In this document: in pieces, positions 396 to 23,980 of the stretch
Layout of the letters: each line of letters opens with the position of its first letter
Numbering within the stretch: the stretch's first letter is position 1
Source: Bacilli bacterium
GTDB taxonomy: Bacteria > Bacillota_I > Bacilli_A > RF39 > UBA660
Assembly: GCA_017433415.1 (NCBI GenBank)
Contig: JAFRHI010000009.1
Location: 1,723 to 65,722, forward strand
Length of the DNA: 64,000 nucleotides
Direction: 5' to 3'
The notes under the pieces: model-generated
What the model saw: the letters and a program-made list of their open reading frames with translations, nothing else
Database searches by the model: none
Told to the model about the DNA's origin: nothing
Translations under genes and position numbers: made by a program

Positions 396-413
396 GTGAG
401 GTTACTTTAATAT

Positions 414-1790: not shown

Positions 1791-1796
1791 TAAGTT

Positions 1797-2114: not shown

Positions 2115-2134
2115 AAAGAAAGTAAGGTGATAAT

Positions 2135-4603: not shown

Positions 4604-4605
4604 TT

Positions 4606-6272: not shown

Positions 6273-6286
6273 TAGAAATAATAATT

Positions 6287-6504: not shown

Positions 6505-6523
6505 TTTAAAGATTGGAGGTCTT

Positions 6524-7510: not shown

Positions 7511-7814
7511 ACATATTTATTTTACCCCAGAAGAATTTGCTCGTATTTCTGAATATCAAGAAAGGAACAAAATGTCTTATTCAAGTGCAGTTTGTTCTCT
7601 TTCTATTTCTGCATTAAATAGTGATGATGTCTTAGATAGACTTAGTAAATTAGAATCTAGTTTAAATTATATAATCAAAAAGTTAAAATATATTTCATTG
7701 TTAGATGAGCAAATATATTCTGATATGGATTTTGATAATTTAACAGATCCTAAAAATAGTAAAGCCTTAAATGAATTTCATAAAAAAATAAGGAATAACT
7801 ATATAGATGACTAA
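7494..7814 (+). CDS. MobC-like RHH relaxosome accessory protein
   Basis: KHIYFTPEEF..I.......MSYSSAV RHH pattern; overlaps the relaxase start. Confidence 0.6.
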   Translation: MKKIDKHIYFTPEEFARISEYQERNKMSYSSAVCSLSISALNSDDVLDRLSKLESSLNYIIKKLKYISLLDEQIYSDMDFDNLTDPKNSKALNEFHKKIRNNYIDD

Positions 7815-9114
7815 AAGTCCTAAAGTTATATTTAATTCTATCTTTACTTTTGCTTTAAACAATCCAGATAGCAAATATACTAATCATAATAAAAGTATAA
7901 AGAGAGTTCAAAAAATGTTTGACTATTATACTAATGAAGAAAAAAGAGCTATGTCTATGTTTGATTATTATACTGGTAAACTTACTAAAGAAGATACAAT
8001 GAATTTAGTTACTGAAAATGGGAAATTTGCTACTGAAAAAGAAGTTGAAAAAAGAAAAAAATTAGCAGTCAAATATCTAGAAAATTCTAATTTATGGCAA
8101 GGTGTTTTATCTTTTAATAATGATTATCTAAATAAAAATATAGATATTCATAAATTGGAACAAGAACTTGCTACTAATATTTTACCTAAATTTTTTAAAA
8201 GATGTGGTTTTAAAGATCCAGATAAGATGTTTTATCAATTAGCACTTCATACTGATACAGATAATTTGCATTTTCATTTTTCTTTTATGGAAAAAGAGCC
8301 AAATTATGAATATTCAAAAAAGAAAGTTGGATATCGTAGATCTGGTGAACTATCTCAAAGTGAAATTGATTTTTTAAAAGCACAAGTTATCCATACAATA
8401 GAAAAAGAAAAGATATATACCCCTTTAGTTATAGAAACTAATAAAGAAATTGAAGAATTAAAAAAATACTTTAGTCCTAAAGAAAAAAATTATCTTTTAA
8501 GAAATAAAAAAGATTTAATATTAGAAGAAAAAATATTAAGACTTGGTCAGCTACTTTATAATGATAGACTTGGTAAAGATACTAAAATAAAGTATGGATC
8601 AATTAAGAATAAAGAAATAATATCTTTAACTAAAGATATTAAGAATTATATTTTTTCTAAATCAAATGACAACTTTAAATTGGAATATGATAATTTTAAA
8701 GAAGCATTAAATAAAATTAATGATTATTTCTACAAGATTAATGAAGATAATAACATTAAAGATATTAAAGTAGATACTACTGCTATTGATAATAAAAATA
8801 AGTATGTAGATAATTATATCTATAATGCTATTGTTAATTATGCAGATTATAATTATAAGAAAGAATCTAAAAATATATCTAAAATAAAAGAAAATGATAT
8901 TATTCAAGAAATAATATTGAAACATTATCTTAATAATAAAAAGCAAACTAGAAAAGATATATTAAAAAACTATCTATCTAGTTCTATTCCAAAACAAAGA
9001 TTTAAACATAAACAAGAGATTGAAAATGCTATTAGAAATATTAATGATGAAATGGAAGAAGCACAAAAAGAATTTAGTAAACTATTTCAAAATGATAATT
9101 CATATACAAAATGA
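7807..9114 (+). CDS. Relaxase, MobL/MobP2-type HUH endonuclease
   Basis: FDYY catalytic Tyr motifs, LWQGVLSF, HTDTDNLHFH His triad. Confidence 0.88.
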   Translation: MTKSPKVIFNSIFTFALNNPDSKYTNHNKSIKRVQKMFDYYTNEEKRAMSMFDYYTGKLTKEDTMNLVTENGKFATEKEVEKRKKLAVKYLENSNLWQGVLSFNNDYLNKNIDIHKLEQELATNILPKFFKRCGFKDPDKMFYQLALHTDTDNLHFHFSFMEKEPNYEYSKKKVGYRRSGELSQSEIDFLKAQVIHTIEKEKIYTPLVIETNKEIEELKKYFSPKEKNYLLRNKKDLILEEKILRLGQLLYNDRLGKDTKIKYGSIKNKEIISLTKDIKNYIFSKSNDNFKLEYDNFKEALNKINDYFYKINEDNNIKDIKVDTTAIDNKNKYVDNYIYNAIVNYADYNYKKESKNISKIKENDIIQEIILKHYLNNKKQTRKDILKNYLSSSIPKQRFKHKQEIENAIRNINDEMEEAQKEFSKLFQNDNSYTK

Positions 9115-9128
9115 AAGGATGTGATGTG

Positions 9129-9839
9129 ATGCCTAATTGGACTCATAATAAAATAATATGCAAAAAATCTATCGCAGAAAAATTATTAACACCAGTTGAA
9201 GATACTTATGTATTAGATTTTAATAAATTAATACCCATGCCAAACGAATTAGACTTAACTTGTGGAGCAATTGAAGATATGTCTGTTGCTTGTTATTATT
9301 ATTCTTTAGATGATAATGAAAGAAAAAAAGTAAAAGATTTATTATTTAATACAAAAACTGACTTTTATCACAATTATTGGAATAAATATAGTAATGATAT
9401 TAATAGATTATTAAATGGATCACTAAATATTAATGAAATAAGTAATAATTATGATTCATCAGATGATAAAATGAAAGAAAAATATTCTAGCATTTATGAT
9501 CTTGGTAAAAGATATGTAGATAATATAAAAGACTATGGTTTTCCAAATTGGTATGATTGGAGAATTGAAAACTGGGGTACAAAATGGAATGTGGATGATG
9601 AAGTAAGTGTAATAGATATAGATAAAAATAATTATGAAATAAGATTTGATACTGCATGGAGTTTACCTTATGGAATAATGTTAAAGTTTAGTGAATTATG
9701 TAAAGATAATGAATTCCATTGGGAATTTCAAAATGAAGATTTTGATGGGTATCATACTTTAACAAAAGAAAATGGTAAAATAATAGATAATGTTACTGGC
9801 TATGATGAAGAATATACAGATGATGAAATTGAAATTTAA
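9129..9839 (+). CDS. DUF1281/YubB ferredoxin-like domain protein
   Basis: MPNW, DFNKLIPMP, WYDWRIENWGTKWN and FDTAWS motifs. Confidence 0.8.
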   Translation: MPNWTHNKIICKKSIAEKLLTPVEDTYVLDFNKLIPMPNELDLTCGAIEDMSVACYYYSLDDNERKKVKDLLFNTKTDFYHNYWNKYSNDINRLLNGSLNINEISNNYDSSDDKMKEKYSSIYDLGKRYVDNIKDYGFPNWYDWRIENWGTKWNVDDEVSVIDIDKNNYEIRFDTAWSLPYGIMLKFSELCKDNEFHWEFQNEDFDGYHTLTKENGKIIDNVTGYDEEYTDDEIEI

Positions 9840-9858
9840 TTTATTTAATAATTTATGA

Positions 9859-9887
9859 TTGACAATATACGACAAATTTGTTATATT
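9859..9887 (+). promoter_or_regulatory. sigma-A promoter overlapped by an inverted repeat
   Basis: TTGACA (9859), 17 bp, TATATT (9882) with extended TG; IR TGACAATATA (9860-9869) / TATATTGTCA (9888-9897). Confidence 0.7.
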
Positions 9888-9893
9888 TATATT

Positions 9894-9963
9894 GTCAGTT
9901 AGAGCAGTATAGAAGTACTAACTGATGTAGTATAGCATCTGCTAGTATAGGGATGCTTTTTTT
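9894..9963 (+). ncRNA. Candidate ~70-nt small RNA (two hairpins, intrinsic terminator)
   Basis: GTCAGTTAG/CTAACTGAT stem, AGCATC/GATGCT stem with T-run, three AGTATAG copies; directly after a promoter. Confidence 0.55.
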
Positions 9964-10120
9964 GTGCCTTAATTTATGATATACTATTAATAGAAAAAAA
10001 TATTAGAAAAAATAGTGAAAAAATTGATAAAATGTGATAAAATATTAATATGTGAAAATATAATAATTTACTTTAGGATTGTTCGTTATAGATTTAAAAA
10101 TATTAAGTGAGGGTTGTATT

Positions 10121-12271
10121 ATGAAAAAAGAAAGTCATTCTTCTAAAAAGAAAAAGTTAATAAATTTACATAGCATGAAATCAAAACAAGCATTTATAAT
10201 GCTTATCGTTATGCTAGTTCAAATATTTACACCAATTATGAAAGTTGAAGCAGTTACGCACGCAAATACTGGTAGAAGTAATTTTATAAATACTATTTTT
10301 AAAAAAGGTGATATGATAACAAATGATAGCACTCTTTCAAGGACTTGGTTATCCTATAATGGTGCAAACGCTGGTGGTATTTATAAAGATGAAATATTTT
10401 ATTTTAATTCTAATGGTTACTATGTGGTGTATGATGTTTCTCGAAATTCTTCTGCTTCTACTGTATTTTATACTGATTTATATCAAATCACTTTAAATAC
10501 AAATGGAAGTTCTGATTCTGATTCTACAATGCTTGTTAAGAAAGGAGATAAATATGAAAAACTAGTGCCAACTACATATGAATCTTATGCAACTGGAGTT
10601 GGCTTACCTACTCCAACAAGAGATAGTTATAGTTTTGGTGGATGGTATACTGAAGCAGAAGATGGAACACAAGTAACAAACGATACTACATTCAATGGAA
10701 CAAATAATACTACTCTATATGCACATTGGACATTTACTGGTGCTTCATATACAGTTAATGATAATTTAACATATAATGGAGAAGAACAAACAGGTATAAC
10801 ACTTAATAATTCAACTATTACAGCAGGAACAGATAAAGCAACAAATGTAGGAGATTACACAGCAACAGTAATACCAAATGAAGGATATACTTGGGAAGAT
10901 AACACAACAGAACCTAAAGAAGTAACTTGGAGTATAAGTCCTGCAGAGGTTACTATACCAACATTAAGTAATACTGCAAAATCGTTTACTGATTCTGAAC
11001 AATCTCCAACAATAACTGGTTATGATGAAAATACAATGACACAAACTGGAACAGCGAGTGCAAAAGATGCAGGAAATTATACAATTACTTGGAATTTAAA
11101 AGATAGTAATAATTATAAATGGAATGATGATACAATTACTGAAAAAAATGCTAACTGGAGTATAGGCACTGTTGATATACCAGATAGTATGATTAAGTTT
11201 GAAGATAATGAAGTTACTTATGATGGTGATGAACATTCAATTAAAATTACTGGAAATTTACCAGGTGGAACTATTGAATATTCAACTGATGGTGTAAATT
11301 ATTCTGAAACACTTCCAACATTTACTGATGTAGGAGAATATGCAATTTATTATAGAGCAAGTAAATCAAACTATAATGATAAAGTAGGAAGTAATACTTT
11401 AAAAATAAATCCAAAAGCATTAACTGAATATACAATTATTATTGAAAATCAAGTATATACAGGTGAAGAAATAAAACCTACAATAATTATTAAAGATGGA
11501 GATAGAATTGTTCCAAGTACTGAATATGAATTAGAGTTTGAAGATAATATCGGACCTGGAACTGGAAAAGTTATAGTTAAAAATAAAGATGGTGGAAATT
11601 ATATAATTTCAACTAAAAATGCAACATTTATGATAATAGATCCAGGTAAGGTAGAATTTATTGATCCTACTACTCCTAATTCAAATAATGCCAAAGTTAT
11701 TGAATCAGCTGATGAAGTAATTGCTAAAATAGATTTTACTGATGAAGATTTAGATAAAATAAATCAAGGAAAAAATATTGATGTATATTTAGAAGTAAAA
11801 GATATTAGTAATAGTATTTCAAGTAGTGATAAAAGTAAGATTGAAGAAAAACTTGGAAATGATAAATTAGGATTATATTTAGATGTTAGTTTATTTAAAA
11901 AAGTTGAGGGTGAAGAAGCAACAAAGATTACTGAAACAAAAACACCTATTACAATATCTTTTGAAATACCAGACGAATTAATAAATAAAGATTCAAATGT
12001 AGAAAGAACATTTAAAGTATTAAGATTACATGATGGTAATGTAGAAGAAATAGAAGTTAAAGTAAATGGAAATATTGCTACATTTGAAACTGATAAATTC
12101 TCAACATATGCATTAACTTACAATGATGTTATTACTACAAGTAATCCACATACTGGAGATAATATTGGAACATCATTTGTAATGCTTATTATTTCAAGTT
12201 TAGGTTTAATAAGTATATTAGGTTATACAGTTATTAGTAATAAAAGAAAATTAGTAAAAACTAATAATTAA
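10121..12271 (+). CDS. Sortase-anchored surface protein/adhesin with an InlB B-type repeat and repeated beta domains
   Basis: Signal peptide; LPTPTRDSYSFGGWY...TLYAHW repeat; TYNGEEQ/TYDGDEH/YTGEEI repeats; NPHTG + TM + basic tail. Confidence 0.85.
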   Translation: MKKESHSSKKKKLINLHSMKSKQAFIMLIVMLVQIFTPIMKVEAVTHANTGRSNFINTIFKKGDMITNDSTLSRTWLSYNGANAGGIYKDEIFYFNSNGYYVVYDVSRNSSASTVFYTDLYQITLNTNGSSDSDSTMLVKKGDKYEKLVPTTYESYATGVGLPTPTRDSYSFGGWYTEAEDGTQVTNDTTFNGTNNTTLYAHWTFTGASYTVNDNLTYNGEEQTGITLNNSTITAGTDKATNVGDYTATVIPNEGYTWEDNTTEPKEVTWSISPAEVTIPTLSNTAKSFTDSEQSPTITGYDENTMTQTGTASAKDAGNYTITWNLKDSNNYKWNDDTITEKNANWSIGTVDIPDSMIKFEDNEVTYDGDEHSIKITGNLPGGTIEYSTDGVNYSETLPTFTDVGEYAIYYRASKSNYNDKVGSNTLKINPKALTEYTIIIENQVYTGEEIKPTIIIKDGDRIVPSTEYELEFEDNIGPGTGKVIVKNKDGGNYIISTKNATFMIIDPGKVEFIDPTTPNSNNAKVIESADEVIAKIDFTDEDLDKINQGKNIDVYLEVKDISNSISSSDKSKIEEKLGNDKLGLYLDVSLFKKVEGEEATKITETKTPITISFEIPDELINKDSNVERTFKVLRLHDGNVEEIEVKVNGNIATFETDKFSTYALTYNDVITTSNPHTGDNIGTSFVMLIISSLGLISILGYTVISNKRKLVKTNN

Positions 12272-12319
12272 TCAAGGAGCTAGTAACAACTAGTTCCTTT
12301 TAATTTAGAGGTGGATATA

Positions 12320-13063
12320 ATGAAAAAGAAAAGGAAATTAAAAAAGAAAAATATAATAATTTTAATCATTATAATCATATTATTAGTTATATTTTGTATT
12401 TCATTAACTAATATAATTAATTGGAAAAAAGATAATGATGATAACCTAAAAATACAAGAAGATTTAAACCAGTATATAAAAGAAGAACCTAAAGAAGATG
12501 AAGAATACAAAATAGATTTTAAAGCATTAAAAGAACAAAATTCTGATGTAGTTGCATATTTAGAAGTTCCAAATACAAATATTAAATATGTAGTTGTTAA
12601 AGGAAAAGATAATGATTATTATTTAAAACATAACTTTAATAAAGAATATAATAATGCAGGATGGATATTTGCAGATTATAGAAATAAGTTTAATTTTACT
12701 GATTATAATATAATTATTTATGGTCATAATACAAGAGATGGATCTATGTTTGGAACTTTAAAAAATGTTTTAAATGAAGATTGGTTTAGTAATAAAGATA
12801 ATCACGAAATAGTATTAGTAACTGAAAATAGAATAAATAAATATCAAGTATTTTCAGTATATGAAGATAAAGCAAGTGATTACCCAATTACTACTGAATT
12901 TAAAAACGATAATGAATATCTTAAATTCTTAAAAACAATTAAGAAGAAAAGTAAATATGATTTTAATGTAGATGTATCAGAAGAAAAAAGTATTTTAACA
13001 TTATCAACTTGTGCCACTAATAATCAAAACAGAGTAACATTACATGCAATAAATATAAAATAA
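12320..13063 (+). CDS. srtB: Class B sortase
   Basis: N-terminal TM; DNDYYL, YGHN, TLSTC and catalytic Arg motifs; adjacent to an NPxTG substrate. Confidence 0.92.
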   Translation: MKKKRKLKKKNIIILIIIIILLVIFCISLTNIINWKKDNDDNLKIQEDLNQYIKEEPKEDEEYKIDFKALKEQNSDVVAYLEVPNTNIKYVVVKGKDNDYYLKHNFNKEYNNAGWIFADYRNKFNFTDYNIIIYGHNTRDGSMFGTLKNVLNEDWFSNKDNHEIVLVTENRINKYQVFSVYEDKASDYPITTEFKNDNEYLKFLKTIKKKSKYDFNVDVSEEKSILTLSTCATNNQNRVTLHAINIK

Positions 13064-13143
13064 AAAGCATTGAAATTTTAAGATATTATGATTTATGAGT
13101 AGATAGCCTCTACTCTTTCTTAAACACTTGTATAAAATAACTA

Positions 13144-13172
13144 TTGAAAAAATTGTCGTATTGTGGTATCAT
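13144..13172 (+). promoter_or_regulatory. sigma-A promoter
   Basis: TTGAAA, 17 bp, TATCAT with extended TG. Confidence 0.65.
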
Positions 13173-13178
13173 TAATTT

Positions 13179-13291
13179 GTGGTAAGCAATTACCACTGTT
13201 AAACCATTTTACTTTACTAAGCATCTCACTTCTTATATAGAGGTATGCAGTAAAGCCTTGATTAGTCGCTAGTACAGGACTAATTTTTTTT
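13179..13291 (+). ncRNA. Candidate ~110-nt structured RNA or leader with terminator
   Basis: GTGGTAA-GCAA-TTACCAC tetraloop hairpin, long CTTTACT...AGTAAAG stem, ATTAGTC/GACTAAT terminator with T-run. Confidence 0.55.
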
Positions 13292-13320
13292 ATAAGTGAT
13301 TTGACAGAAAGGCATTCTTT

Positions 13321-13563
13321 ATGGGTAAAAAAACTATTAAAAAAAATTATGAAGTTGAAGAAAGACTATTAGCATTAATCTTAATGGTTGATAATTTTGT
13401 TTTTGAATCATCTGCGTCACTTCCAGAAGAAGTTAGAAGATATACTTTTGATTATTTAAACAAATTAAAAGAATATGCAGGTATTGAAGAAAAGAAATAT
13501 ATTGATTGGGATATAACAGACATTAAGTATAATGTAGAATATGAATTTGAAAAAAATAATTAA
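13321..13563 (+). CDS. Hypothetical 80-aa protein
   Basis: GAAAGG RBS; followed by an AGGCAACT/AGTTGTCT hairpin with T-run. Confidence 0.6.
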   Translation: MGKKTIKKNYEVEERLLALILMVDNFVFESSASLPEEVRRYTFDYLNKLKEYAGIEEKKYIDWDITDIKYNVEYEFEKNN

Positions 13564-13622
13564 TTTATTTTAGGCAACTTTATTAGTTGTCTTTTTTTAT
13601 GCTTGAAAGGAGGAATTATTTA

Positions 13623-13880
13623 TTGAATAAAATTGGCAATATAATAAAACAAGAAAGATTAAAAAATAATTTAACATTAGAATCACTATCTAATATTTCT
13701 AATATATCTATATCTACTCTTAGTAAAATAGAAAATGATAAGATAAGAAATGTTAGTAGTGTTTTTTTATATAGGTTAAGTAAAATTTTAAATATAGATT
13801 ATAATTACTTAACTAGACAAAGGTGGGATATTCTTCCTACCTTTTTATATGAAAGGAATCACAGATTTGCAAGTAAATAA
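13623..13880 (+). CDS. Xre/Cro-family HTH regulator
   Basis: AAGGAGG RBS with TTG 13623; IKQERL...LT...LS....IS...LSKIEN motif. Confidence 0.85.
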   Translation: MNKIGNIIKQERLKNNLTLESLSNISNISISTLSKIENDKIRNVSSVFLYRLSKILNIDYNYLTRQRWDILPTFLYERNHRFASK

Positions 13881-14586
13881 ATTATATAACGAAGATTGTC
13901 TTGTAGGTCTTAAAAAAATACCAGATAATTCAGTAGATTTAGTTATTATAGATCCACCTTATGATATTTGTACTAAAGGTGGTAAAAAAGGATCTGGAAG
14001 ATTATGTTATGACTTAACTAAATTAGAAAATGAATTAAAAGAAAATAATTTAGTTAATGGATATGATTTATCTATACTAGATGAGCTTATTAGAGTTATG
14101 AAAGAAATTAATATCTATATCTGGTGTAATGGCAGACAGATACCTACATACTTAAAATATTTCGTTGATAAACTTGGTTGCAAATTAGAAATTATTATAT
14201 GGGGTAAAACGAATCCTATGCCCTTATATAGTAATAAGTATTTAGGTGATAAAGAATATTGTTTATATTTTAGAAAAGGTGGTTATTGTAAACCTAACTC
14301 TTATGAAGATGCTAAAACAATTTATTTATCTACTTTAAATGTAAAAGATAAGCAAATGTATGGTCATCCAACTATAAAGCCACTTCCTTTAATTAGAAAA
14401 TTAATAAGGAATAGTTCTAAAGAAAATGAAATAGTATTAGATTGCTTTATGGGTAGTGGTACAACTGCAGTTGCTAGTCTTTTAGAAAATAGAAAATATA
14501 TAGGATTTGAAATTAATAAAAAATATTATGATGTTGCTTTAAAAAGAATATCAGAAGTCAATAAGGAGGATGATATAAATGGCTAA
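13867..14586 (+). CDS. Orphan N4/N6 DNA methyltransferase (beta class)
   Basis: DPPY before HPTIKP and DCFMGSGTT; no cognate endonuclease nearby; TTG start after GAAAGGA. Confidence 0.9.
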   Translation: MQVNKLYNEDCLVGLKKIPDNSVDLVIIDPPYDICTKGGKKGSGRLCYDLTKLENELKENNLVNGYDLSILDELIRVMKEINIYIWCNGRQIPTYLKYFVDKLGCKLEIIIWGKTNPMPLYSNKYLGDKEYCLYFRKGGYCKPNSYEDAKTIYLSTLNVKDKQMYGHPTIKPLPLIRKLIRNSSKENEIVLDCFMGSGTTAVASLLENRKYIGFEINKKYYDVALKRISEVNKEDDING

Positions 14587-15034
14587 TAAATATGATGAAG
14601 TCAAAGAAAAACATCAAAAAATAGTTAATGAATTTCCAATGAAATTTGCTTTCTCTGATGAACAATTTAATCAAGGCATGAAAGAATTGGGATTAGATCC
14701 TAAAGATACTGATAAAGTTGTTTCTATTGGTGGAGGTGGTTTTATCAGAAAATCTGATGCTAAAAAGTTTGGTGATATGTGGGATTCACTTAGAAAAGAA
14801 CATAATGATTTAATAAATGCAGATAAAACTGGTGAGGGTTATATTAAAGATATGTTTGTAAGTGAACTTGAAAATCACGAGTATGGTTATACTTATGAAT
14901 TAGATGATACTTTAGATGCTTTAGAATTAACTAGAGAACAAATTGCTAATAGTCCTACTCTAAAACATGGATTAGAACTTGCTAGAAAAGAAGTTTTACA
15001 TAAAGAAAATGAGGTTGATTTAGATTATGAATAA
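14579..15034 (+). CDS. Conserved hypothetical phage/ICE protein
   Basis: FAFSDEQF, IGGGGF and EL.NHEY motifs; AAGGAGG RBS. Confidence 0.65.
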   Translation: MANKYDEVKEKHQKIVNEFPMKFAFSDEQFNQGMKELGLDPKDTDKVVSIGGGGFIRKSDAKKFGDMWDSLRKEHNDLINADKTGEGYIKDMFVSELENHEYGYTYELDDTLDALELTREQIANSPTLKHGLELARKEVLHKENEVDLDYE

Positions 15035-15251
15035 TATTGATGAAATAGATGAGAAATTTGATGATTTACAAACAATTCTACATTCATCTAAAGAATTTAG
15101 TTTTGAAGATGGTACTATCTTAAAATTAAGGCAGTATTATGGTAATAAAGAAGTTTATTTAGATTTATCTAAATTAGATATAGATATGTTTGAAAAACTT
15201 TATTATGATCCAGAAAAAGAATTAGATTCTGAGGAGGACTATGATTTATAG
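15027..15251 (+). CDS. Small acidic hypothetical protein
   Basis: GAGGT RBS; overlaps the previous stop. Confidence 0.55.
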   Translation: MNNIDEIDEKFDDLQTILHSSKEFSFEDGTILKLRQYYGNKEVYLDLSKLDIDMFEKLYYDPEKELDSEEDYDL

Positions 15252-15275
15252 CAATAGATTAACGAGGGATAGATT

Positions 15276-17318
15276 ATGAATTTATCCCTTTTAATTTTAT
15301 TGCTTGTTATTTTTATTTTCATTATAGGTTTTATGTATATAGAGCCTATTATATCTAAACATAAAATAAAAAATAATAATGAATATGGATCTGCAAGGTT
15401 TTCTACTGAAGCAGAAATAAATAAGTATTTTACTAAAGAAAAAATTTCAAATATTAATGAAGTTGGTTTTCCAGTATATTATGATAAAAATGTATCTCAT
15501 GTATGGTTTGATAAAGAAACACCACACTATGTTTATTTAGGATCAAGTGGATCTGGTAAAAGTGTTACTTGTGTTATTAATATGGTAACTTTTATAGCAA
15601 ATGCTAAAAAATCAAGAAGTGTCTTTGTAACTGATCCTAAAGGTGAAATATACCAAACAACTTCTAAAATGTTACATGATAAAGGATATAAAGTTTTAAC
15701 AATAGATTTTAGACATCCAGAATTATCTAATCATATAAATATATTAGAGCCTATCATTCGTGAATATGAAAACTATATTAAATATGAAAAATTGGCTAAT
15801 GAAACAAACGAAGAAAATTTAAAACTAGAATATCAAAATAAATCTATATCTAGTTATGCAGAAACAAATAGATTAATTACATCTCTAGCATCTATGATTA
15901 CTTATGATAAAACACAAGGTAAAGATCCTTTTTGGAATAATAGTGCTAAAAACTTATTAGAGGGTTTAATTGGATTCTTTTTAGAAGAATATAAAGATAA
16001 TAAAATTAAAAGAGAACAAATTACTATGACTTCTATTCGTAAGTTTCAAAACTCTACTATGGAAGATAAAAACTCTAAAAAGTTTAAATTTTATATAGAA
16101 CAAAAACCTTATGGATCTAAGTCTAAAGATAGTTTAATACCTATACTTTCATCTAGTGAAAATACATATAAATCTATTACTAGTGTTTTCTCAGAAAAAA
16201 TGGCAATATTTGATGATGTCAATGTTGCTAATGTTACTAGTAAATCAGATTTTGATTTTGATATTTTAGGTAAAGAAAAATCAGCTATCTTTTGTATCAT
16301 TCCAGATGAAGATAAAATTTATTATTCTTTAGTTACTATTATATTAGGTTTACTTTATAAAGAATTAGTAAAACTTGCTAACTCTACTGATAGTAAAAAA
16401 GTTCCAGTAGAAATTGATTGGATTTGTGATGAATTTAGTAATTGCCCACCATTAATTGAGCCAAGCATAGAGTCCATAATTAGTGTGGCTAGATCCAGAG
16501 GACTTCGTTATCACTTATTTATACAAAGTTTAAGTCAATTAGATAATGTATATGGTAAGGAAGTAGCACAAATAATACTTGATAACTCTGGACTTGCTTA
16601 TCTAAAAACTAATACAATGGATACTGCAGAGGCTATCAGTAAAAGACTTGGTAAGAAAACTATTGAAGCAAATTCTATAAGTCAATCTGTTAGTTTGATG
16701 AATTACAATGGCAATAAATCTACTTCATTAATTGCTCGTGATTTATTAACACCAGATGAAGTTAAGAATCTGCATTATAAAACAATTATATTTCCAAATA
16801 TAGGTTATCCAATATTTAGGGACACTGTCATCTATAAAAAATTGTCTTGCTATTCTAAAGGTGAATTACCTAGAAAAATTACACCTTTAAAAGATTTAAG
16901 CAATACTTATTTTGTAGTTGAAAATATAGAATCTAAATATGATAGATTAACTAGAAATAGAATTAATAAGAGTATATATAAAGAAGAAATATCTGCTTAT
17001 GATAAATTTAAAGAAGAAGAAATTGCAAAATTAAATAACATCGTTGAAGTTATTCAAAATTTACTAAAAGATAAAATTAGTTTATTTGAATATAAAGAAA
17101 ATAATAATCGTACTTTTGCTAGTTTTGAATTAAAAGAAAAATTAACTACAAAAGAATTAACTTTTATAAAAGGTAAAGTAAATAAAGAAGTATTTCATAT
17201 TGAAATAGACAATGGAAATAATACTAAATCTACAATAGAAATTCATTTAAAGAATCCACTTGAAAAAGATAATACTCTACAAAAAGAGCTAATAAATTCA
17301 AGTGGTAATAATGAATAA
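15276..17318 (+). CDS. virD4: VirD4/TraG type IV coupling protein
   Basis: N-terminal TM; YGSARF, GSSGSGKS, TDPKGE, DPFW, DEF and QSLSQL motifs. Confidence 0.93.
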   Translation: MNLSLLILLLVIFIFIIGFMYIEPIISKHKIKNNNEYGSARFSTEAEINKYFTKEKISNINEVGFPVYYDKNVSHVWFDKETPHYVYLGSSGSGKSVTCVINMVTFIANAKKSRSVFVTDPKGEIYQTTSKMLHDKGYKVLTIDFRHPELSNHINILEPIIREYENYIKYEKLANETNEENLKLEYQNKSISSYAETNRLITSLASMITYDKTQGKDPFWNNSAKNLLEGLIGFFLEEYKDNKIKREQITMTSIRKFQNSTMEDKNSKKFKFYIEQKPYGSKSKDSLIPILSSSENTYKSITSVFSEKMAIFDDVNVANVTSKSDFDFDILGKEKSAIFCIIPDEDKIYYSLVTIILGLLYKELVKLANSTDSKKVPVEIDWICDEFSNCPPLIEPSIESIISVARSRGLRYHLFIQSLSQLDNVYGKEVAQIILDNSGLAYLKTNTMDTAEAISKRLGKKTIEANSISQSVSLMNYNGNKSTSLIARDLLTPDEVKNLHYKTIIFPNIGYPIFRDTVIYKKLSCYSKGELPRKITPLKDLSNTYFVVENIESKYDRLTRNRINKSIYKEEISAYDKFKEEEIAKLNNIVEVIQNLLKDKISLFEYKENNNRTFASFELKEKLTTKELTFIKGKVNKEVFHIEIDNGNNTKSTIEIHLKNPLEKDNTLQKELINSSGNNE

Positions 17319-17358
17319 CTTAATTAACTAGTTCATATTTTTAACTGGAGGCTATTCC

Positions 17359-17604
17359 ATGTTAGAAAATGATATAGAAGTTAGATTTAGTACAAAACAT
17401 TTACCTTTTGAATATAAATTACTTGAATATAGATTAATTATTAATAAAGAGTTATACGATGAAAAAGTAATTGATCTTAGAACATATAATGAAATGGAAA
17501 ATTCTATTATATCTAGATTAAAAAAAATTAGAAATGAATATTCCCAAAGTACTGAGGATGATTTGACAATGTTAAACAAGAGAGGTAACATGCAATCATC
17601 CTAG
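17359..17604 (+). CDS. Small helical (SHOCT-like) protein upstream of the recombinase; candidate recombination directionality factor
   Basis: GGAGG RBS; L...KVID...Y..M pattern; position typical of accessory genes of Firmicute serine recombinases. Confidence 0.5.
   Translation: MLENDIEVRFSTKHLPFEYKLLEYRLIINKELYDEKVIDLRTYNEMENSIISRLKKIRNEYSQSTEDDLTMLNKRGNMQSS
17563..17591 (+). promoter_or_regulatory. sigma-A-like promoter for the recombinase, embedded in the upstream ORF
   Basis: TTGACA (17563), 17 bp, TAACAT (17586). Confidence 0.6.
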
Positions 17605-17645
17605 TTATCTTGGGTTTCAAGAACACATGAAAGGAAGTGTTATAT

Positions 17646-19418
17646 ATGGATATAAAAAAAGCAAGAGAAGATTTAAGAAAAGGAAAAACAATTTATGATA
17701 TGCAATTAAAAGTTGCTTATTATGGTCGTGTTTCTACTGATAAAGACGATCAGTTAAATTCTTTGGAAAATCAACAAAATTATTTTGAAGATATGATTAG
17801 AGAAAATAAAAATTGGATTTTTACTCGTGGCTATATTGATGAAGGTATTAGTGGTACTGCAGTTAAAAATCGTGATTCTTTCTTAAAAATGATAGAAGAT
17901 GCTACTTTAGGAAAAATAGATTTAATATTAACTAAAGAAATTTCAAGATTTTCTAGAAACACAGTTGATAGTATAAAATATACTGAATATCTATTAAAAC
18001 AAGGTGTAATTGTTTACTTCCTTTCTGATAATTTAAATACTATTCAAGAAGATGCAGAATTTAGACTTACTATTATGTCTAGTATGGCACAAGATGAAGT
18101 TCGTAAATTATCTGAAAGAGTTAAATTTGGTATTAATAGAATGATTAAAGATAGAAAATTAATAGGTGGTAATTTAACTGGTTACTATAAAAAAGATGGA
18201 AGATATGAAATAAACCCAAATGAAGCACCAATGATTAAATACTTATTTACTACTTATGCTAGTGGTAGTATAGGATTAAAAAAGATTGGTGAAGAACTAG
18301 CAGAAATGGGATATGTTAATTCTAAGGGAAAACCTTATTGTCAAACTACTTTAGCAAAGATGTTATCTAACCCTAGATATAAAGGTTATTATACTGCTAA
18401 ACTTAGTGAAGTTGAGGATTATAAAACTCATAAGAAAAAGAAATTACCTAAGGAAGATAATATTATAGAAAAAGATGATAGAATTCCACCAATAGTATCA
18501 GAAGAATTATGGGATAAGGCTAATTTATTACATGAAAAAAGAAAAAAATTACCATCAAGGCATGTTCTTAATTCTGAAGAACATATTAAAAAATATAAAT
18601 ATTCTGCAAAACTTTTTTGTAAAGATTGTAATAGTATCTTTATTCGTAGTGGTGGATCAAATCGTGCATTAAATCCAACATGGGCTTGTAGAACTTATAA
18701 AGTTGATGGTGTATCTAAATGTGAATCCCCAATAATTAAAGAAAGTTACTTAGATAAAATTTTTGTAGATGTCTTTACTGATTTTATTAAACATAAAAAA
18801 GATTATTTAGGACAAGTCTTATCAGAATATAAAAACATAGTAAAAAACTTTACTACTGATATTGATACAGAAGATATTAATAGAAAAATAGATCAAATTG
18901 AAAAACAAAAAGATAAATTATTAGATTTAAGTTTAAAAGGAATAATTGATGATTTTGAATTTAAGAAAAGAAATGATAAATTTAATCAAGAACTTTTTGC
19001 TTTACAAAAACAAATTGATAATTCACAAAACCAAAATTTAGAGGAAGATAGATTAAGAACTAAATTAAAAGAAATAGAAAACTGCTTAACTACTAAATTA
19101 GACATAAAAGAAAACTTACCATTTTTAGTAAATCTATTAGTAGATAAAGTTATTGTAGAAAAAGTAAATAATGATAGAAAACATGTTAGATTATATATTT
19201 ATTTTGATTTTAATGCACCAGACATTGATATAGATTTAGACATGAACGACAAAATCGAACTTAAAGATAGGACTTTAAAAACTATGGCTTGTCGTAGAGA
19301 TTCTTCTGTCCTAAAGTGTTCGTGTATTGATACAAAGCAATCCAGGGTTTGTAAGACTGGGTCAATTATTGGGGAAAGAGAGGCTTTTTTCTTATATTGG
19401 GAGATTCGGTTTTGGTGA
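17646..19418 (+). CDS. Large serine recombinase (integrase)
   Basis: YGRVST, DEGISG and KEISRFSRN catalytic motifs, recombinase domain, CKDC...C...C zinc ribbon, coiled coil. Confidence 0.95.
   Translation: MDIKKAREDLRKGKTIYDMQLKVAYYGRVSTDKDDQLNSLENQQNYFEDMIRENKNWIFTRGYIDEGISGTAVKNRDSFLKMIEDATLGKIDLILTKEISRFSRNTVDSIKYTEYLLKQGVIVYFLSDNLNTIQEDAEFRLTIMSSMAQDEVRKLSERVKFGINRMIKDRKLIGGNLTGYYKKDGRYEINPNEAPMIKYLFTTYASGSIGLKKIGEELAEMGYVNSKGKPYCQTTLAKMLSNPRYKGYYTAKLSEVEDYKTHKKKKLPKEDNIIEKDDRIPPIVSEELWDKANLLHEKRKKLPSRHVLNSEEHIKKYKYSAKLFCKDCNSIFIRSGGSNRALNPTWACRTYKVDGVSKCESPIIKESYLDKIFVDVFTDFIKHKKDYLGQVLSEYKNIVKNFTTDIDTEDINRKIDQIEKQKDKLLDLSLKGIIDDFEFKKRNDKFNQELFALQKQIDNSQNQNLEEDRLRTKLKEIENCLTTKLDIKENLPFLVNLLVDKVIVEKVNNDRKHVRLYIYFDFNAPDIDIDLDMNDKIELKDRTLKTMACRRDSSVLKCSCIDTKQSRVCKTGSIIGEREAFFLYWEIRFW
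19331..19353. other. Candidate att junction of the ICE
   Basis: PBP similarity starts at (x)GC AAT CCA GGG TTT; short IR TACAAA (19331-36) / TTTGTA (19348-53). Confidence 0.65.
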
Positions 19419-20196
19419 AAAGAGTGGTGTTGATTTAAATGGTGAAGGTAAGGGTATTTTGTTTCCCTTGGATAGGGTTGGTAATGTAGAACTTGCAACT
19501 AGTGCATTTGGTCAAGGTATAAGTGTGACTCCTATACAGCAAGTAATGGCAGTATCAGCTGCTGTGAATGGTGGTTATTTGTATAAACCCTATATTGTTA
19601 AAAATATTAGCGATAATACAAATACGGTTGTTAAGGAATATAATAAAGTTTTAAGAAGGAAGGTAATTAGTTCTAAAACATCTGCTATTATGCGCTATGC
19701 ATTAGAGAGTGTAGTTGCTAAAGGAGGAGGAAAAAGTGCATATATTGATGGCTATAGAATAGGGGGAAAAACAGGAACAGCTCAAAAACAAGAAAATGGC
19801 CATTATTTAGTTAATAATTATATAATGTCTTTTATGGCAGTAGTTCCTGCCAATGACCCGGAAGCAGTTTTATATTTGGCCATAGATAATCCTAAGCATA
19901 CGGCAATGCTTTCTAGTTATACGACTACGCCTATCGCAAGAAGAATTCTTTTAGATATTATTAATGCTTTGAAAATAGAAAAGCAAGATAATGCTTTAGA
20001 AAAAGATTTGGAATGGAATGATAAAGTTACGTACACAGTTCCTAATGTAATTGGGAAAAATATTAATGATGCCAAAAAAGAGCTATGTAATTTTGAAATC
20101 GTAATAGAAGGTACTGGTGATATTGTTTTTGAACAATCCCCTAGAGCTTTACAAAGAATTGAGGATGGTAGTAAAGTGCGTATTTTCGTTAAATAG
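19339..20196 (+). pseudogene. spoVD: 3' part of an interrupted SpoVD-like class B PBP (transpeptidase C-half plus one PASTA domain)
   Basis: NPGFV.LG..LG, AFGQG and KTGTAQK motifs, single PASTA (VPNVIG...QSP); SxxK motif and N-terminus missing; upstream of mraY and ftsW/spoVE. Confidence 0.85.
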
Positions 20197-21859: not shown

Positions 21860-22840
21860 ATGCTACTTTTGACAAAGGCAATTTTCGCTATTATGATTGG
21901 TTTTTTAACTTCAACTGCTTTAGGGCTGGTTATGTTACCAATACTAAAGAAATTTCGAGTTGGCCAAAAAATATCAATCTTTGTTGGTGAAGCACATCGA
22001 AAAAAAGAAGGCACACCAACGATGGGTGGTTTGATTTTTATTATTCCAACAATGCTAGCAACATTGGCTCTTATTTTTATGAAAAAGATAGCTTATACAT
22101 CTAATTTAGGAATAGTTTTACTAGTCTTTTTAGGGTATTCTGCAATTGGATTTTTAGATGATTTTTTATCAATTAGAAAAGGTAATAATGAAGGATTAAC
22201 AACTTATCAAAAACTATTTATGCAAGTTTTAATTGCAATTGGCTTTTTCTATATTTATATGCGTAGTGGAGGGCAAACTGCATGGGTTGTTGGGACACTG
22301 CATATTGATTTGGAATTTGGTTGGTTGTATGGTTTAGCTATATTATTTATTTTAGTTGGTGCTAGTAATGCTGTTAATTTAACTGATGGTTTAGATGGTT
22401 TGGCTGGTGGTTTGTCGGCAATTGCTTTTATTGCTTTTTCACTTATTTCATTATCAGTTGGTTTTGAAGATATTGGAATATTTAGTTTAATTTTAGTTGG
22501 TTCATTAATGGGATTTTTGATATATAATACGCATCCAGCAAAAGTTTTTATGGGTGATACTGGGTCATTAGCCCTTGGAGCTGTTATGGGAGCGATAGCA
22601 ATACTTACGCATAGAGAGTTAACGCTACTTGTAGTTGCTTCAGTATTTGTAATAGAAACGCTTAGTGTTATTATTCAAACATTCTGGGTACAAGTATTTC
22701 ATAGAAAGTTATTTTTAATGACGCCACTTCATCATCATTTTGAAAAACTTGGCTGGGCAGAGACAGATATTGTTAAATTATTTTGGGTAGCTGGTTTAAT
22801 TCTTGCCATGGCTGGTATTATCTTTGGAGTTTGGGTATAA
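21860..22840 (+). CDS. mraY: Phospho-N-acetylmuramoyl-pentapeptide transferase
   Basis: GTPTMGG, GFLDD, NLTDGLDGL, FMGDTGS and PLHHHFE motifs. Confidence 0.97.
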   Translation: MLLLTKAIFAIMIGFLTSTALGLVMLPILKKFRVGQKISIFVGEAHRKKEGTPTMGGLIFIIPTMLATLALIFMKKIAYTSNLGIVLLVFLGYSAIGFLDDFLSIRKGNNEGLTTYQKLFMQVLIAIGFFYIYMRSGGQTAWVVGTLHIDLEFGWLYGLAILFILVGASNAVNLTDGLDGLAGGLSAIAFIAFSLISLSVGFEDIGIFSLILVGSLMGFLIYNTHPAKVFMGDTGSLALGAVMGAIAILTHRELTLLVVASVFVIETLSVIIQTFWVQVFHRKLFLMTPLHHHFEKLGWAETDIVKLFWVAGLILAMAGIIFGVWV

Positions 22841-22894: not shown

Positions 22895-23980
22895 ATGAAG
22901 ATAGATAAAAAATTAATTATAGCAGTAATCTTTTTAGCACTTTTTGGTTTGCTAATGATTTATTCTTCATCTAGTATCTGGTCTTTATATAAATATAATG
23001 ATTCTTTTCATTATTTAAAATATCAAGCTGTTTTTTTTATAATAGGAGTTATTTTAATGATTTATATTTCTAAAATTAATTATAATTTTTATTATAAATA
23101 TTCAAATATAATTATTTTAAGTAGTTTTATATTATTAATTCTTGTATTAATACCAGGTATAGGTAGTATTAGAAATGGTAGTAGGAGTTGGTTTGGAATA
23201 GGATCTTTAGGAATTCAACCTAGTGAAGCGGCTAAATTGGGACTTATAATTTTTACAAGTAAATATTTAGCTAATAATGAAAAGAATATTAATAATTATG
23301 TTAAAGGTGTTTTTCCAATATTATTTGTTTCTTTAATATTTTTTGGACTTATTATGTTACAGCCTGATTTAGGTACAGGAATGATTATTTTTATCTCTGT
23401 TATTGCTCTTTTTTTTGTGGCAGGTGTTCCTCTAAAATTTTTTGCTTTTGGTAGTATATTAGGAATAATAGGGATAATTATTTTAATAGTAATCGCTCCT
23501 TATAGGATGGATAGAATTACGTCTTTTATTAATCCTTGGAAAGACGAACTAGGAACAGGATTTCAAATAATTCAAAGTTTATATGCAATAGGACCAAGTG
23601 GATTATTAGGTACAGGATATTTGAATTCTGTACAAAAGCATTTTTATTTGCCAGAACCACAAACAGATTTTATTTTTTCAGTAATAGCTGAAGAGTTTGG
23701 CATTGTTGGAGCTATTATTGTTGTAGGACTATTTATTATAATATTTTATTTAGGTATTACAATTGCTTGTAAAAGCAATGATAAGTTTGCAAAATATCTT
23801 TCATTTGGTATTATATTTCAGATGATTTTTCAAGCTACTATGAATTTAATGGTAGTTGTTGGTTTGATTCCTGTTACGGGGGTAACACTCCCATTTCTTT
23901 CTTATGGTGGATCTTCTTTGTTAGTATCTATGGCATCTATTGGGATTGTTCTTAATATTTCAAGTAATACTATTAATTAA
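22895..23980 (+). CDS. ftsW: SEDS protein FtsW/SpoVE
   Basis: QPSE, QPDLGT, LPEPQTDFIF and PFLSYGGSS motifs. Confidence 0.93.
   Translation: MKIDKKLIIAVIFLALFGLLMIYSSSSIWSLYKYNDSFHYLKYQAVFFIIGVILMIYISKINYNFYYKYSNIIILSSFILLILVLIPGIGSIRNGSRSWFGIGSLGIQPSEAAKLGLIIFTSKYLANNEKNINNYVKGVFPILFVSLIFFGLIMLQPDLGTGMIIFISVIALFFVAGVPLKFFAFGSILGIIGIIILIVIAPYRMDRITSFINPWKDELGTGFQIIQSLYAIGPSGLLGTGYLNSVQKHFYLPEPQTDFIFSVIAEEFGIVGAIIVVGLFIIIFYLGITIACKSNDKFAKYLSFGIIFQMIFQATMNLMVVVGLIPVTGVTLPFLSYGGSSLLVSMASIGIVLNISSNTIN

What the first reader, a model, noticed from the sequence alone, without database searches (positions are those of the whole stretch)
15276..20196. Conjugative element splits spoVD at its catalytic SxN motif: a possible skin-like, developmentally excised ICE
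Seen: directly after the serine recombinase the sequence becomes the C-terminal half of a PBP, starting at ...NPGFV.LG..LG. Known (from recall): Bacillus SpoVD reads NSCNPGFV here, where SCN is the SxN active-site motif. SpoVD has one PASTA domain, sits upstream of mraY/spoVE and is a mother-cell cortex-synthesis enzyme. Serine-recombinase elements interrupting sigK (skin), spsM (SPbeta), gerE and spoVFB are excised during sporulation to rebuild the gene. Inference: this apparently complete ICE inactivates spoVD while integrated and must excise precisely in the mother cell for cortex synthesis, coupling conjugative mobility to host development. I do not know of spoVD as a described ICE target.
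Basis: partly seen in the sequence, partly recalled or inferred. Interest (0 to 1): 0.85.

Follow-up and report, generated by a model that had tools for sequence, protein, structure and literature searches.

The report
Conjugative element splits sporulation gene spoVD
A conjugative mobile element sits exactly inside the active-site codons of a spore-cortex enzyme gene in an uncultured gut bacterium, and relatives show this gene is a widespread hotspot for such removable insertions, probably cut out when the cell makes a spore.

Summary
A large serine recombinase (LSR, 17637..19418) is followed directly by the 3' part of a SpoVD-like class B PBP. The gene resumes at Asn349 of the S347-C348-N349 motif, with the crossover at the AA at 19339-19340. 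The window and its contig hold only the right ~21 kb of the conjugative element (ICE). The left ~10 kb and the 5' gene half are not in this 1.2-Mb MAG.

Two other genomes carry the same ICE (LSR 88% and 97% identical) with both junctions. Joining their pieces in silico gives 633- and 636-aa ORFs with SCNPGF restored.

Of 80 homologous LSR loci, 69 of the 72 evaluable sit at this same codon. They include 2.5-6 kb mini-elements that keep only the LSR, a conserved 66-81-aa ORF and a little cargo.

Within the genus the gene is also split at other sites, one of them the SxxK codons. Up to three elements occupy one gene.

This genome also has spoIVA and cotE split by LSR elements.

One metagenome contig carries an attP junction.

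Developmental excision in the mother cell, as for skin and SPbeta, is the best-supported reading but is not shown.

spoVD as a natural target was not found in the literature searched.

The parts
1..19340 (+). Right-hand part of the ICE. It runs on to the contig start 1722 bases before the window, giving about 21 kb in contig C4. About 9.8 kb of the left part is missing, judged against the 29.3-kb copy in G059.
   Evidence: C4:1-21781 is collinear with G059:C39:114997-135247 at 90-96% nt identity
84..395 (+). T4SS pilin-like protein
   Evidence: PF18895, E 2e-06
2243..4603 (+). VirB4-type conjugation ATPase
   Evidence: P-loop_TraG, DUF87, AAA_10
5367..6272 (+). M23 peptidase, a likely cell-wall hydrolase of the transfer apparatus
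   Evidence: PF01551, E 1.9e-20
7807..9114 (+). MobL-family relaxase
   Evidence: PF18555 E 2.3e-14; PF03432
15276..17318 (+). Type IV coupling protein (T4CP)
   Evidence: T4SS-DNA_transf E 2.7e-58; TraG-D_C
17334..17337 (+). Conserved CATA box 13 nt upstream of the ribosome-binding site (GGAGG) of the small ORF. It may be the -10 element of a mother-cell sigma factor. This is weak evidence.
   Evidence: CATA at this place in 37 of 59 distinct upstream regions, against 8.6% of background windows. The sigma assignment is recalled, not tested.
17359..17604 (+). 81-aa ORF directly upstream of the LSR. Candidate recombination directionality factor. No known family.
   Evidence: a homolog lies upstream of the LSR in 69 of 80 loci, including 2.5-kb mini-elements; no family match.
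17637..19418 (+). Large serine recombinase. The likely true start is the ATG at 17646. The last 26 codons and the stop codon lie in host DNA beyond the crossover.
   Evidence: R31, S33 and other columns invariant in 26 sequences
19313..19340 (+). attR: the P arm of attP (19313-19338) plus the crossover dinucleotide AA (19339-19340)
   Evidence: In L045 attL and attR share only AA. P and P' arms form an imperfect inverted repeat.
19339..20196 (+). 3' part of the SpoVD-like class B PBP, Asn349 to the stop codon. It holds the rest of the transpeptidase domain and one PASTA domain.
   Evidence: TIGR02214 profile positions 346-634, 328.9 bits
20245..21780 (+). Conserved coiled-coil protein with no family, lying between spoVD and mraY. 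Host gene.
21860..22840 (+). mraY (host)
22895..23980 (+). FtsW/SpoVE-type SEDS protein. It is the only one found in this genome.

Best explanation
The element is an ICE of about 30 kb. It carries a Firmicute-type T4SS, a MobL relaxase, a T4CP, adhesins with sortases, methylases, a small conserved ORF and a large serine recombinase at its right edge. The recombinase integrated it into the Asn349 codon (crossover AA) of the SxN active-site motif of a SpoVD-like PBP. That PBP is specific to sporulating species. The host is a small-genome, uncultured gut bacterium (Bacilli incertae sedis).

Shown:
- The integration, the exact site and the family-wide specificity of this LSR clade for that codon.
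- In-frame restoration on in-silico excision in relatives.
- One attP junction of a related element in a metagenome.
- Dispensability of the intact gene for growth.

Inferred:
- In the sporulating cell the LSR, with the small upstream ORF acting as directionality factor, recombines attL with attR in the terminally differentiating mother cell.
- That excision rebuilds spoVD for cortex synthesis.
- The forespore chromosome keeps the element. This is the logic of skin and SPbeta.
- The same recombination unit also serves conjugative transfer.
For: 1) Exact site. Host sequence resumes at N349. attL and attR of the same ICE in G039 and G059 share the AA core, and attP has dyad symmetry.
2) Three-piece joins give ORFs of 633 aa (G039) and 636 aa (G059) with STFK and with SCNPGF at position 347. 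All 11 validly computed joins of small elements give 633-636-aa ORFs with SCNPGF.
3) Of 80 LSR homologs (43-97% identity), 64 have the 3' part starting at aa 347-349 within 600 nt downstream. Three more have it 1.4-3.8 kb downstream. Two abut the 5' half in inverse orientation. Eight contigs end too early to judge. That makes 69 of 72 evaluable.
4) Gene pieces are intact: 51 of 52 complete 3' parts and 16 of 16 complete 5' halves have no stop. Mini-element LSRs are intact.
5) SpoVD identity. TIGR02214 scores 682.2 bits on the intact ortholog, against 338 for the next family. In the genus 34 genomes have both this PBP and spoIVA, 11 have neither and 2 incomplete genomes are discordant.
6) The genome has spo0A, a SigG-like and a SigF-like factor, spoVAC/spoVAEB and a SASP-like hit.
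7) In this same genome spoIVA and cotE are also split, each with an LSR gene next to the 3' piece.
8) The gene is split at three further sites by sister LSR clades: the SxxK codons, about Q415, and about aa 406.
9) The small ORF upstream of the LSR is kept in 69 of 80 loci, including 2.5-kb elements.
10) One of 20 metagenome contigs holding the P arm continues into the ICE left end, which is an attP junction.
11) In the source run the junction contig has the same depth (35) as the flanking host contigs (33-34). Growth with the split gene is therefore normal.
Against: No read-level or experimental evidence for excision in this organism, and none for its timing or cell type.

The 5' half and the ICE left end are absent from this MAG, so nothing could be rejoined in the genome itself.

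sigE, sigK and spoIIGA were not found in this assembly. The loss of their flanking genes points to a gap.

The LSRs are much more alike than the host genes: 97% against 64% for G000/G059, and 92% against 75-77% for G007/G052. The elements therefore move horizontally and many insertions may be recent. This weakens the argument from intact gene pieces.

Twelve of 47 genus genomes lack the gene, and most of those also lack spoIVA and sigE. Sporulation is therefore being lost in part of the genus, and selection may be relaxed.

TIGR02214 falls just under its cut-off of 688.

The small ORF matches no known RDF family. The CATA box is absent from the second LSR clade.
Confidence: 0.6

Rival explanations
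1. Safe-harbour insertion only. The ICE family uses the conserved spoVD codons as attB because the gene is not needed for growth. Carriers cannot sporulate while the element is integrated. Excision happens only for transfer and has no developmental programme.
For: The elements move horizontally: LSR identity far exceeds host-gene identity. Sporulation genes are lost in about 11-12 of 47 genus genomes. G040 has a stop or frameshift inside spoVD without any element. No timing data exist.
Against: Element-bearing genomes keep the rest of the sporulation set open. For example, spoIVA and sigE in G039, G037, G050, G005 and G052 have no stops. Mini-elements without transfer genes keep an intact LSR plus the small ORF, and their gene pieces are intact. 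Four related LSR clades all chose this one gene. The other two identified LSR targets in this genome are spoIVA and cotE, which are mother-cell genes in B. subtilis (recalled).
Confidence: 0.25
2. Stochastic population switch. Excision and reintegration in vegetative cells set the fraction of cells able to complete sporulation (bet-hedging). It is not a mother-cell-specific event.
For: Contig ends coincide with the crossover in several assemblies (G035, G058 and G005; X3 and X5). An attP contig exists. Both fit mixed populations.
Against: In the source run the junction has the same depth as the flanks, so the integrated form dominates. Assembly breaks at a mobile-element border are expected anyway. 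Loss of the circle after vegetative excision would cure the element.
Confidence: 0.1
3. The split PBP is a vegetative FtsI/PBP2B-type enzyme, or the junction is a chimeric assembly.
For: TIGR02214 scores 682.2, under the cut-off of 688. Only one SEDS protein is present in the genome.
Against: The next-best family scores half as much. A separate 709-aa class B PBP on C18 best matches PBP2B. The gene's presence or absence across the genus follows spoIVA. The junction is bridged in a second sample and recurs in 64 other assemblies and 19 metagenome contigs.
Confidence: 0.03

Closest known systems
skin element in sigK (SpoIVCA recombinase plus an RDF) of Bacillus subtilis and Clostridioides difficile
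   Same: [quoted passage not shown] Galperin's survey of 15 skin elements describes the same arrangement (passages read). The element interrupts a sporulation gene. Elements range from a few kb to tens of kb and share only the recombinase.
   Different: The target is spoVD at its SxN codons, not sigK. This element carries a full conjugation module. The gene has at least four insertion sites and up to three occupants. Excision has not been shown.
SPbeta prophage in spsM (SprA/SprB)
   Same: An active mobile element that also acts as a developmentally excised intervening element, with an LSR and a small RDF (abstracts and passages of PMC4191935; PMC5499854 seen in the search listing only).
   Different: The mobility module is conjugative, not viral. 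The small ORF has no detectable similarity to any known family.
gin element in gerE of Bacillus cereus (GirC/GirX)
   Same: Non-prophage minimal intervening elements. The 2.5-6 kb spoVD mini-elements resemble it in content (passages of PMC5595907).
   Different: Different target gene. Here the mini-elements sit beside ICE-borne copies of the same recombination unit, which suggests how such elements spread.
Heterocyst nif-gene elements of cyanobacteria (XisA, XisC, XisF)
   Same: Several elements interrupt one gene or gene cluster needed only in a terminally differentiated cell (PMC4874684 and PMC11249958 seen as abstracts in the search listing). NCBIfam's XisF model gives weak hits to these LSRs.
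   Different: Different phylum, developmental programme and genes. No conjugation genes.
ICEBs1 forced into spoVD of B. subtilis (secondary site in a strain lacking attB)
   Same: An ICE inside spoVD (passages of PMC3715440).
   Different: That is a laboratory artefact of a tyrosine-recombinase ICE. Excision was undetectable and the site differs from its natural attB at 8 positions. Here spoVD is the dedicated primary attB of an LSR family.

Membership tests
Sporulation-gene intervening element (skin-like) | Lies inside the coding sequence of a sporulation gene | tested here: met
Sporulation-gene intervening element (skin-like) | Site-specific recombinase encoded at the element's edge | tested here: met
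   The same arrangement occurs in 64 of 80 loci.
Sporulation-gene intervening element (skin-like) | Precise excision restores an intact ORF | tested here: inconclusive
   Met in silico in relatives. Not testable in this genome because the 5' half is missing.
Sporulation-gene intervening element (skin-like) | Excision occurs during sporulation, in the mother cell only | not testable with these tools
   Only one attP contig of a relative and a conserved CATA box.
Sporulation-gene intervening element (skin-like) | Cognate recombination directionality factor | tested here: inconclusive
   A conserved 66-81-aa ORF lies upstream of the LSR in 69 of 80 loci. It has no family.
Integrative and conjugative element | Relaxase, coupling protein, VirB4 ATPase and other T4SS parts | tested here: met
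Integrative and conjugative element | Both ends (attL and attR) present | tested here: not met
   Only attR is in this assembly. Both ends are present for the same ICE in G059 (29.3 kb) and G039.
Integrative and conjugative element | Excised circular form and transfer | tested here: inconclusive
   One attP junction of a related element among 20 metagenome contigs. Transfer cannot be tested. Horizontal spread is implied.
SpoVD (TIGR02214 equivalog) | Score over the curated cut-off on the full-length protein | tested here: inconclusive
   682.2 bits against a cut-off of 688 on the intact G009 ortholog. It is by far the best family.
SpoVD (TIGR02214 equivalog) | Class B PBP with a transpeptidase domain and one PASTA domain, near mraY and a SEDS gene, distinct from the division PBP | tested here: met
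SpoVD (TIGR02214 equivalog) | Present only in sporulating lineages | tested here: met
   34 genomes have both this PBP and spoIVA, 11 have neither and 2 are discordant, out of 47 genus genomes. Related genomes are not independent.
Large serine recombinase | Resolvase catalytic domain with the conserved Ser, Recombinase domain and zinc ribbon | tested here: met
   (S33 invariant)

The most novel reading that the evidence does not exclude
In this lineage of uncultured gut Bacilli, completing a spore requires several programmed DNA excisions in the mother cell. In this one 1.2-Mb genome spoVD, spoIVA and cotE are all split, and one spoVD gene elsewhere holds up to three elements. The parallel is heterocyst nif rearrangement. 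A radiating LSR guild has specialised on the active-site codons of spoVD (SxxK and SxN). Its ICE members couple conjugation to sporulation. The LSR gene itself is rebuilt on excision: its frame runs on across attP for 306-309 codons into a DUF5655 ORF. That would give different recombinase forms in the integrated and excised states, a built-in directionality switch.
Probability: 0.35. Interest if true: 0.9.

Novelty: new variant of a known kind. Interest (0 to 1): 0.8.

Why it matters
Known sporulation-gene intervening elements are prophage-like or minimal. The targets named in the papers I read are sigK, spsM, spoVFB, spoVR, gerE, yabG, cotJC and spoIIID.

This finding would add three things:
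- A peptidoglycan synthase cut at its catalytic motifs.
- A self-transmissible conjugative element as the interrupter.
- One gene used by four related recombinase clades.

It also gives a natural set of orthogonal LSR/attB/attP pairs, each with a candidate RDF, aimed at one conserved gene. And it suggests how mini-elements such as gin or small skin elements arise and spread: as remnants or passengers of ICEs.

Finally, it bears on how spore-based transmission of abundant uncultured gut bacteria is controlled.

Tried and rejected
- 5' half in the own genome. tblastn with the intact G009 ortholog found only the 3' part and the paralog on C18. PF03717 found only C18.
- Linking contigs. The left end of C4 shares no 25-mer with any other contig end.
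- ICE left part. ORFs of the G039 left part gave no specific match in G000.
- Reads. Only Logan contigs were served, so no read-level attB or attP evidence was possible. A 656-nt contig of X5 matches 19339-19571 and runs on unlike the window to the left of 19339, but its letters were not shown, so I cannot tell an empty site from another insert. A contig of X3 ends at 19343.
- Own genome. No SpoIIGA match and no sigE- or sigK-type sigma factor. I rejected this as evidence of absence because the neighbouring genes of both loci in G039 and G009, thymidine kinase among them, also have no match in G000.
- The small ORF. No Pfam family, only chance-level PHROG hits with E 0.03-0.05, and Atlas hits that are unnamed clusters under 0.9.
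- The sigma-70 promoter and terminator scan was not above shuffles.
- Tree. The careful search did not finish, so a quick tree was used. Row L065 was mistranslated by my coordinates (92 stops) and should be ignored.
- In-silico joins. Nineteen loci had both sides. Eleven were computed validly. L070 and L112 suffered offset errors and were not redone. L089 is limited by its contig. Five loci (L046, L067, L088, L109, L113) held only a middle piece, so my start coordinate was wrong.
- I dropped the argument from long vertical inheritance after one search showed horizontal movement.
- Literature. 'intervening element' + sporulation + spoVD gave 0 papers. spoVD + attB gave 1 paper and spoVD + integrative + conjugative gave 4; of these I read only the ICEBs1 laboratory insertion paper, which is no natural case, and saw the other three only in the listing. 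Supplements are closed. Tables S3 and S7 of the Galperin preprint may list further split genes that I could not see.

Full report
WHAT IS IN THE WINDOW. The window is G000:C4:1723-65722 of a 1.21-Mb MAG with 31 contigs, 27-30% G+C and 91.5% completeness. From the contig start to window position 19340, all genes lie on the + strand and form a conjugation set. They are a T4SS pilin (84..395), a VirB4 ATPase (2243..4603), an M23 peptidase (5367..6272), a MobL relaxase (7807..9114), a surface adhesin with a sortase, a DNA methylase, DUF7659, and a coupling protein (15276..17318). Next come an 81-aa ORF (17359..17604) and a large serine recombinase, LSR (17637..19418), with Resolvase, Recombinase and Zn-ribbon domains. 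Directly behind it, in another frame, lies the 3' part of a class B PBP (to 20196). It matches Pfam Transpeptidase profile positions 103-298 plus one PASTA domain. After that come a coiled-coil protein with no family, mraY and a SEDS gene.

THE JUNCTION. Eight intact orthologs from the same genus read ..QNSCNPGFV.. at this place. The window matches them from AAT CCA GGG onward (19339..) and carries unrelated DNA before that. In the numbering of the intact 633-aa G009 protein, the motif is S347-C348-N349. The LSR reading frame crosses the junction, so its last 26 codons and its stop are host DNA. A contig of a second sample bridges 18825-20948. In the probable source run the bridging contig has depth 35.3, and the flanking contigs have 34.3 and 32.8. 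The junction is therefore real, the integrated form dominates, and the organism grows with the gene split.

WHAT IS MISSING HERE. That cannot be done in this genome.
- tblastn with the intact ortholog finds only the 3' part and a paralog.
- The left end of C4 overlaps no other contig.
- The ICE left part known from relatives is not in the assembly.

THE SAME ICE WITH BOTH ENDS. G039 is another species of the genus. G059 is a more distant host, with SpoVD 64% identical. Both carry the same ICE: LSR 88% and 97% identical, T4CP 87% and 96%.

In G059 everything lies on one 141.7-kb contig, in this order:
- the 5' part, aa 1-297;
- an 18-kb element;
- a middle piece, aa 291-349;
- the 29.3-kb ICE;
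- the 3' part.

The left end of G000's C4 corresponds to a point 9.8 kb inside that ICE.

attL reads ..TGT AA|TCTTGGA.TAAATACAGGAACA.. and attR reads ..AAAGTGTTCGTGTATTGATACAAAGC AA|TCC.GG... The element arms form an imperfect inverted repeat. In locus L045 the only letters shared by attL and attR are AA, which fixes the crossover. Joining the three pieces gives ORFs of 636 aa (G059) and 633 aa (G039), with STFK present and SCNPGF at position 347.

SURVEY OF HOMOLOGOUS RECOMBINASES. A scan of species-representative genomes found 202 relatives of the LSR, and the best 80 were kept (43-97% identity). The hosts are gut MAGs labelled Bacilli, Tenericutes/Mollicutes or Candidatus genera that NCBI files under Bacilli incertae sedis. 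A few contigs sit in bins with unrelated names.

The 80 loci divide as follows:
- 64 have the SpoVD 3' part beginning at aa 347-349 within 600 nt after the LSR.
- 3 have it 1.4-3.8 kb further on.
- 2 have the LSR abutting the 5' half in the inverse orientation.
- 8 contigs end too soon to judge.
- 2 are at another site, near aa 403-409.
- 1 shows no spoVD.

Other features of these loci:
- 25 of the 80 have a T4CP gene upstream, so they are ICE-type.
- Others are elements of 2.5-6 kb.
- 11 of 11 validly computed joins gave 633-636-aa ORFs with SCNPGF.
- 51 of 52 complete 3' parts and 16 of 16 complete 5' halves carry no stop.
- The LSRs of the mini-elements are intact. Their only stops lie in the C-terminal tail.

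A metagenome scan with the 28-nt P arm plus core found 20 contigs. Nineteen continue into spoVD, in 10 different host sequence backgrounds. One (L158) continues into the ICE left end, 71-76% identical over 116 nt to the element side of attL in G059 and G039. That is an attP junction, and so an excised circle or a tandem copy.

ONE GENE, SEVERAL SITES. Among the 47 genus genomes the gene has these states:
- 20 have it intact (634-656-aa open frames).
- 12 lack it.
- 12 have it clearly interrupted.
- 2 show it broken only at contig ends that coincide with the crossover (G035, G058).
- 1 has an internal stop or frameshift (G040).

Besides the SxN site there are three more:
- One lies in the S-T-F-K (SxxK) codons (G037, G039, G050, G047, G059).
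- One lies at Q415, with crossover CA and a perfect 13-bp inverted repeat in attP (G007, G052, G048, G005 and others).
- One lies near aa 406 (L118, L119).

Two elements in one gene are common (G005, G039, G050, G059; also loci whose 3' part stops at aa 415-418). Locus L067 has three. In a quick tree the spoVD LSRs form one group apart from the other LSRs of G000 (support 95). Inside that group they fall into clades by site, with the SxN site held by two clades (the careful search did not finish).

IS IT SpoVD, AND CAN THE HOST SPORULATE? The intact ortholog scores 682.2 bits on NCBIfam TIGR02214 (spoVD), just under the cut-off of 688. The next family scores 338. The second class B PBP of G000 (C18, 709 aa) best matches a PBP2B model.

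Across the genus, the SpoVD-like gene and spoIVA are both present in 34 genomes, both absent in 11, and discordant in 2 genomes under 80% complete. The genomes that lack them mostly lack sigE as well.

G000 has these sporulation genes:
- spo0A;
- a SigG-like and a SigF-like factor;
- two spoVAC/spoVAEB genes beside the SigF-like gene;
- a borderline SASP hit.

sigE, sigK and spoIIGA were not found in G000. In G039 and G009 these loci exist, with a spoIIGA-like ORF upstream of sigE. Their neighbouring genes are equally absent from G000, so whole regions are unassembled. Only one SEDS gene is present.

MORE SPLIT SPORULATION GENES IN THIS GENOME. G000 has five LSR genes. Besides the ICE:
- One lies directly upstream of the 3' part of spoIVA on C16. 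The 5' part is on C29 next to mobile-element genes. spoIVA is split at the same profile position in G007 and G031.
- Another lies directly upstream of the 3' part of cotE on C22 (aa 51-169 of the intact G009 CotE, Pfam PF10628).

In B. subtilis, spoVD, spoIVA and cotE are all mother-cell genes. I recall this and did not test it.

THE RECOMBINATION UNIT. The 81-aa ORF upstream of the LSR has homologs in 69 of 80 loci, including the smallest elements and the distant LSR clade. It belongs to no known family. By position and conservation it is the candidate directionality factor.

In the main clade this ORF is preceded by a terminator-like hairpin and then a CATA box, 8-32 nt before the ribosome-binding site. 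CATA occurs there in 37 of 59 distinct sequences, against 8.6% of background windows. Mother-cell sigma -10 elements begin with CATA, which I recall from memory. The sequences are related, so this is only a hint.

MECHANISM AND ODDS. Integration by the LSR at AA in codon 349 is shown. So are precise in-frame restoration on excision (in silico, in relatives) and the existence of an attP form of a related element.

Excision in the mother cell is inferred from four things:
- the parallel with skin, SPbeta and gin;
- the persistence of intact recombination units in elements that have no transfer genes;
- the intact gene pieces and intact remaining sporulation genes in carriers;
- the fact that all three identified LSR targets in this genome are mother-cell morphogenetic genes.

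Against this, the elements clearly move horizontally: LSR identity is 92-97% where host SpoVD identity is 64-77%. Insertions may therefore be young. Part of the genus has also lost sporulation. I put about 0.6 on programmed excision, 0.25 on a plain safe-harbour insertion and 0.1 on a stochastic switch.

KNOWN OR NEW. The papers I read in passages name these targets:
- sigK, spsM, spoVFB and gerE (PMC10747680);
- spoVFB and spoVR (PMC4191935);
- gerE (PMC5595907);
- sigK, cotJC and spoIIID (bioRxiv 10.1101/2022.02.25.481979).

None names spoVD or spoIVA, and cotE was not among the terms I searched for. The only ICE-in-spoVD report found is a forced, non-excisable ICEBs1 insertion in the laboratory (PMC3715440).

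I rate this a new variant of a known kind: skin-like logic with a new target, a conjugative carrier and multi-site occupancy.

Noticed in passing
L027/L131 (G000:C16:24163-26934) and L026 (G000:C29:3951-4331): spoIVA is split in this genome. A 528-aa LSR gene lies directly upstream of the 3' part on C16. The 5' part (126 aa) on C29 abuts mobile-element genes. G007 and G031 show the same split position.
   Followed up: partly
L161 (G000:C22:46088-48245): cotE is split. A 546-aa LSR gene is followed by the 3' part of CotE (aa 51-169 of the intact 202-aa G009 protein). The 5' 50 aa were not found. The element to its left carries SSB, relaxase-like and sortase genes.
   Followed up: partly
L125:1216-2142 (G059), L031 (G039), L063, L158: The LSR reading frame stays open across attP for 306-309 codons in ICE-type elements and runs into a DUF5655 ORF at the ICE left end. 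The excised form would therefore encode a much longer recombinase than the integrated form. In mini-elements this extension has decayed to 3-57 codons.
   Followed up: partly
L067:122-7894: One spoVD gene is cut into four pieces by three elements, at the SxxK, SxN and Q415 sites. Each of the two complete elements is about 3 kb.
   Followed up: partly
L070:4054-4646, L075:4934-5537, L087:4793-5395: The spoVD mini-elements carry a pair of small ORFs (91-95 aa and 103 aa) that look like an antitoxin-toxin module. This is judged by eye and no family search was run.
   Followed up: no
L078:7657-8748, L117:7558-8706: In two loci the LSR gene abuts the 5' half of spoVD in convergent orientation. The recombinase module sits at the other end of the element, on the other strand.
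   Followed up: partly
L132, L133 (G000:C9:31395-35673): Two adjacent, unusually long RpoD-like sigma proteins (770 and 625 aa). NCBIfam lists the MzaA anti-phage sigma model among their matches, below its cut-off.
   Followed up: no
window 20245-21780: A 511-aa lysine- and glutamate-rich coiled-coil protein with no family lies between spoVD and mraY here and in most genus members examined.
   Followed up: no
window 22895-23980: This is the only FtsW/RodA/SpoVE-family gene found in the genome. It scores about equally on the spoVE and ftsW models. One SEDS protein may therefore serve both division and cortex synthesis.
   Followed up: partly
L040 (G040:C23:10765-12646): The spoVD of G040 is in two adjacent pieces (aa 2-367 and 370-633) with a TAA between them and no element. 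This looks like a pseudogene or a sequencing error.
   Followed up: no
G035:C50 end, G058:C8 start, G005:C59 end and C49 start: Contigs of three other MAGs end or begin exactly at the SxN crossover. A mixed population of occupied and empty sites would split the assembly graph this way.
   Followed up: no
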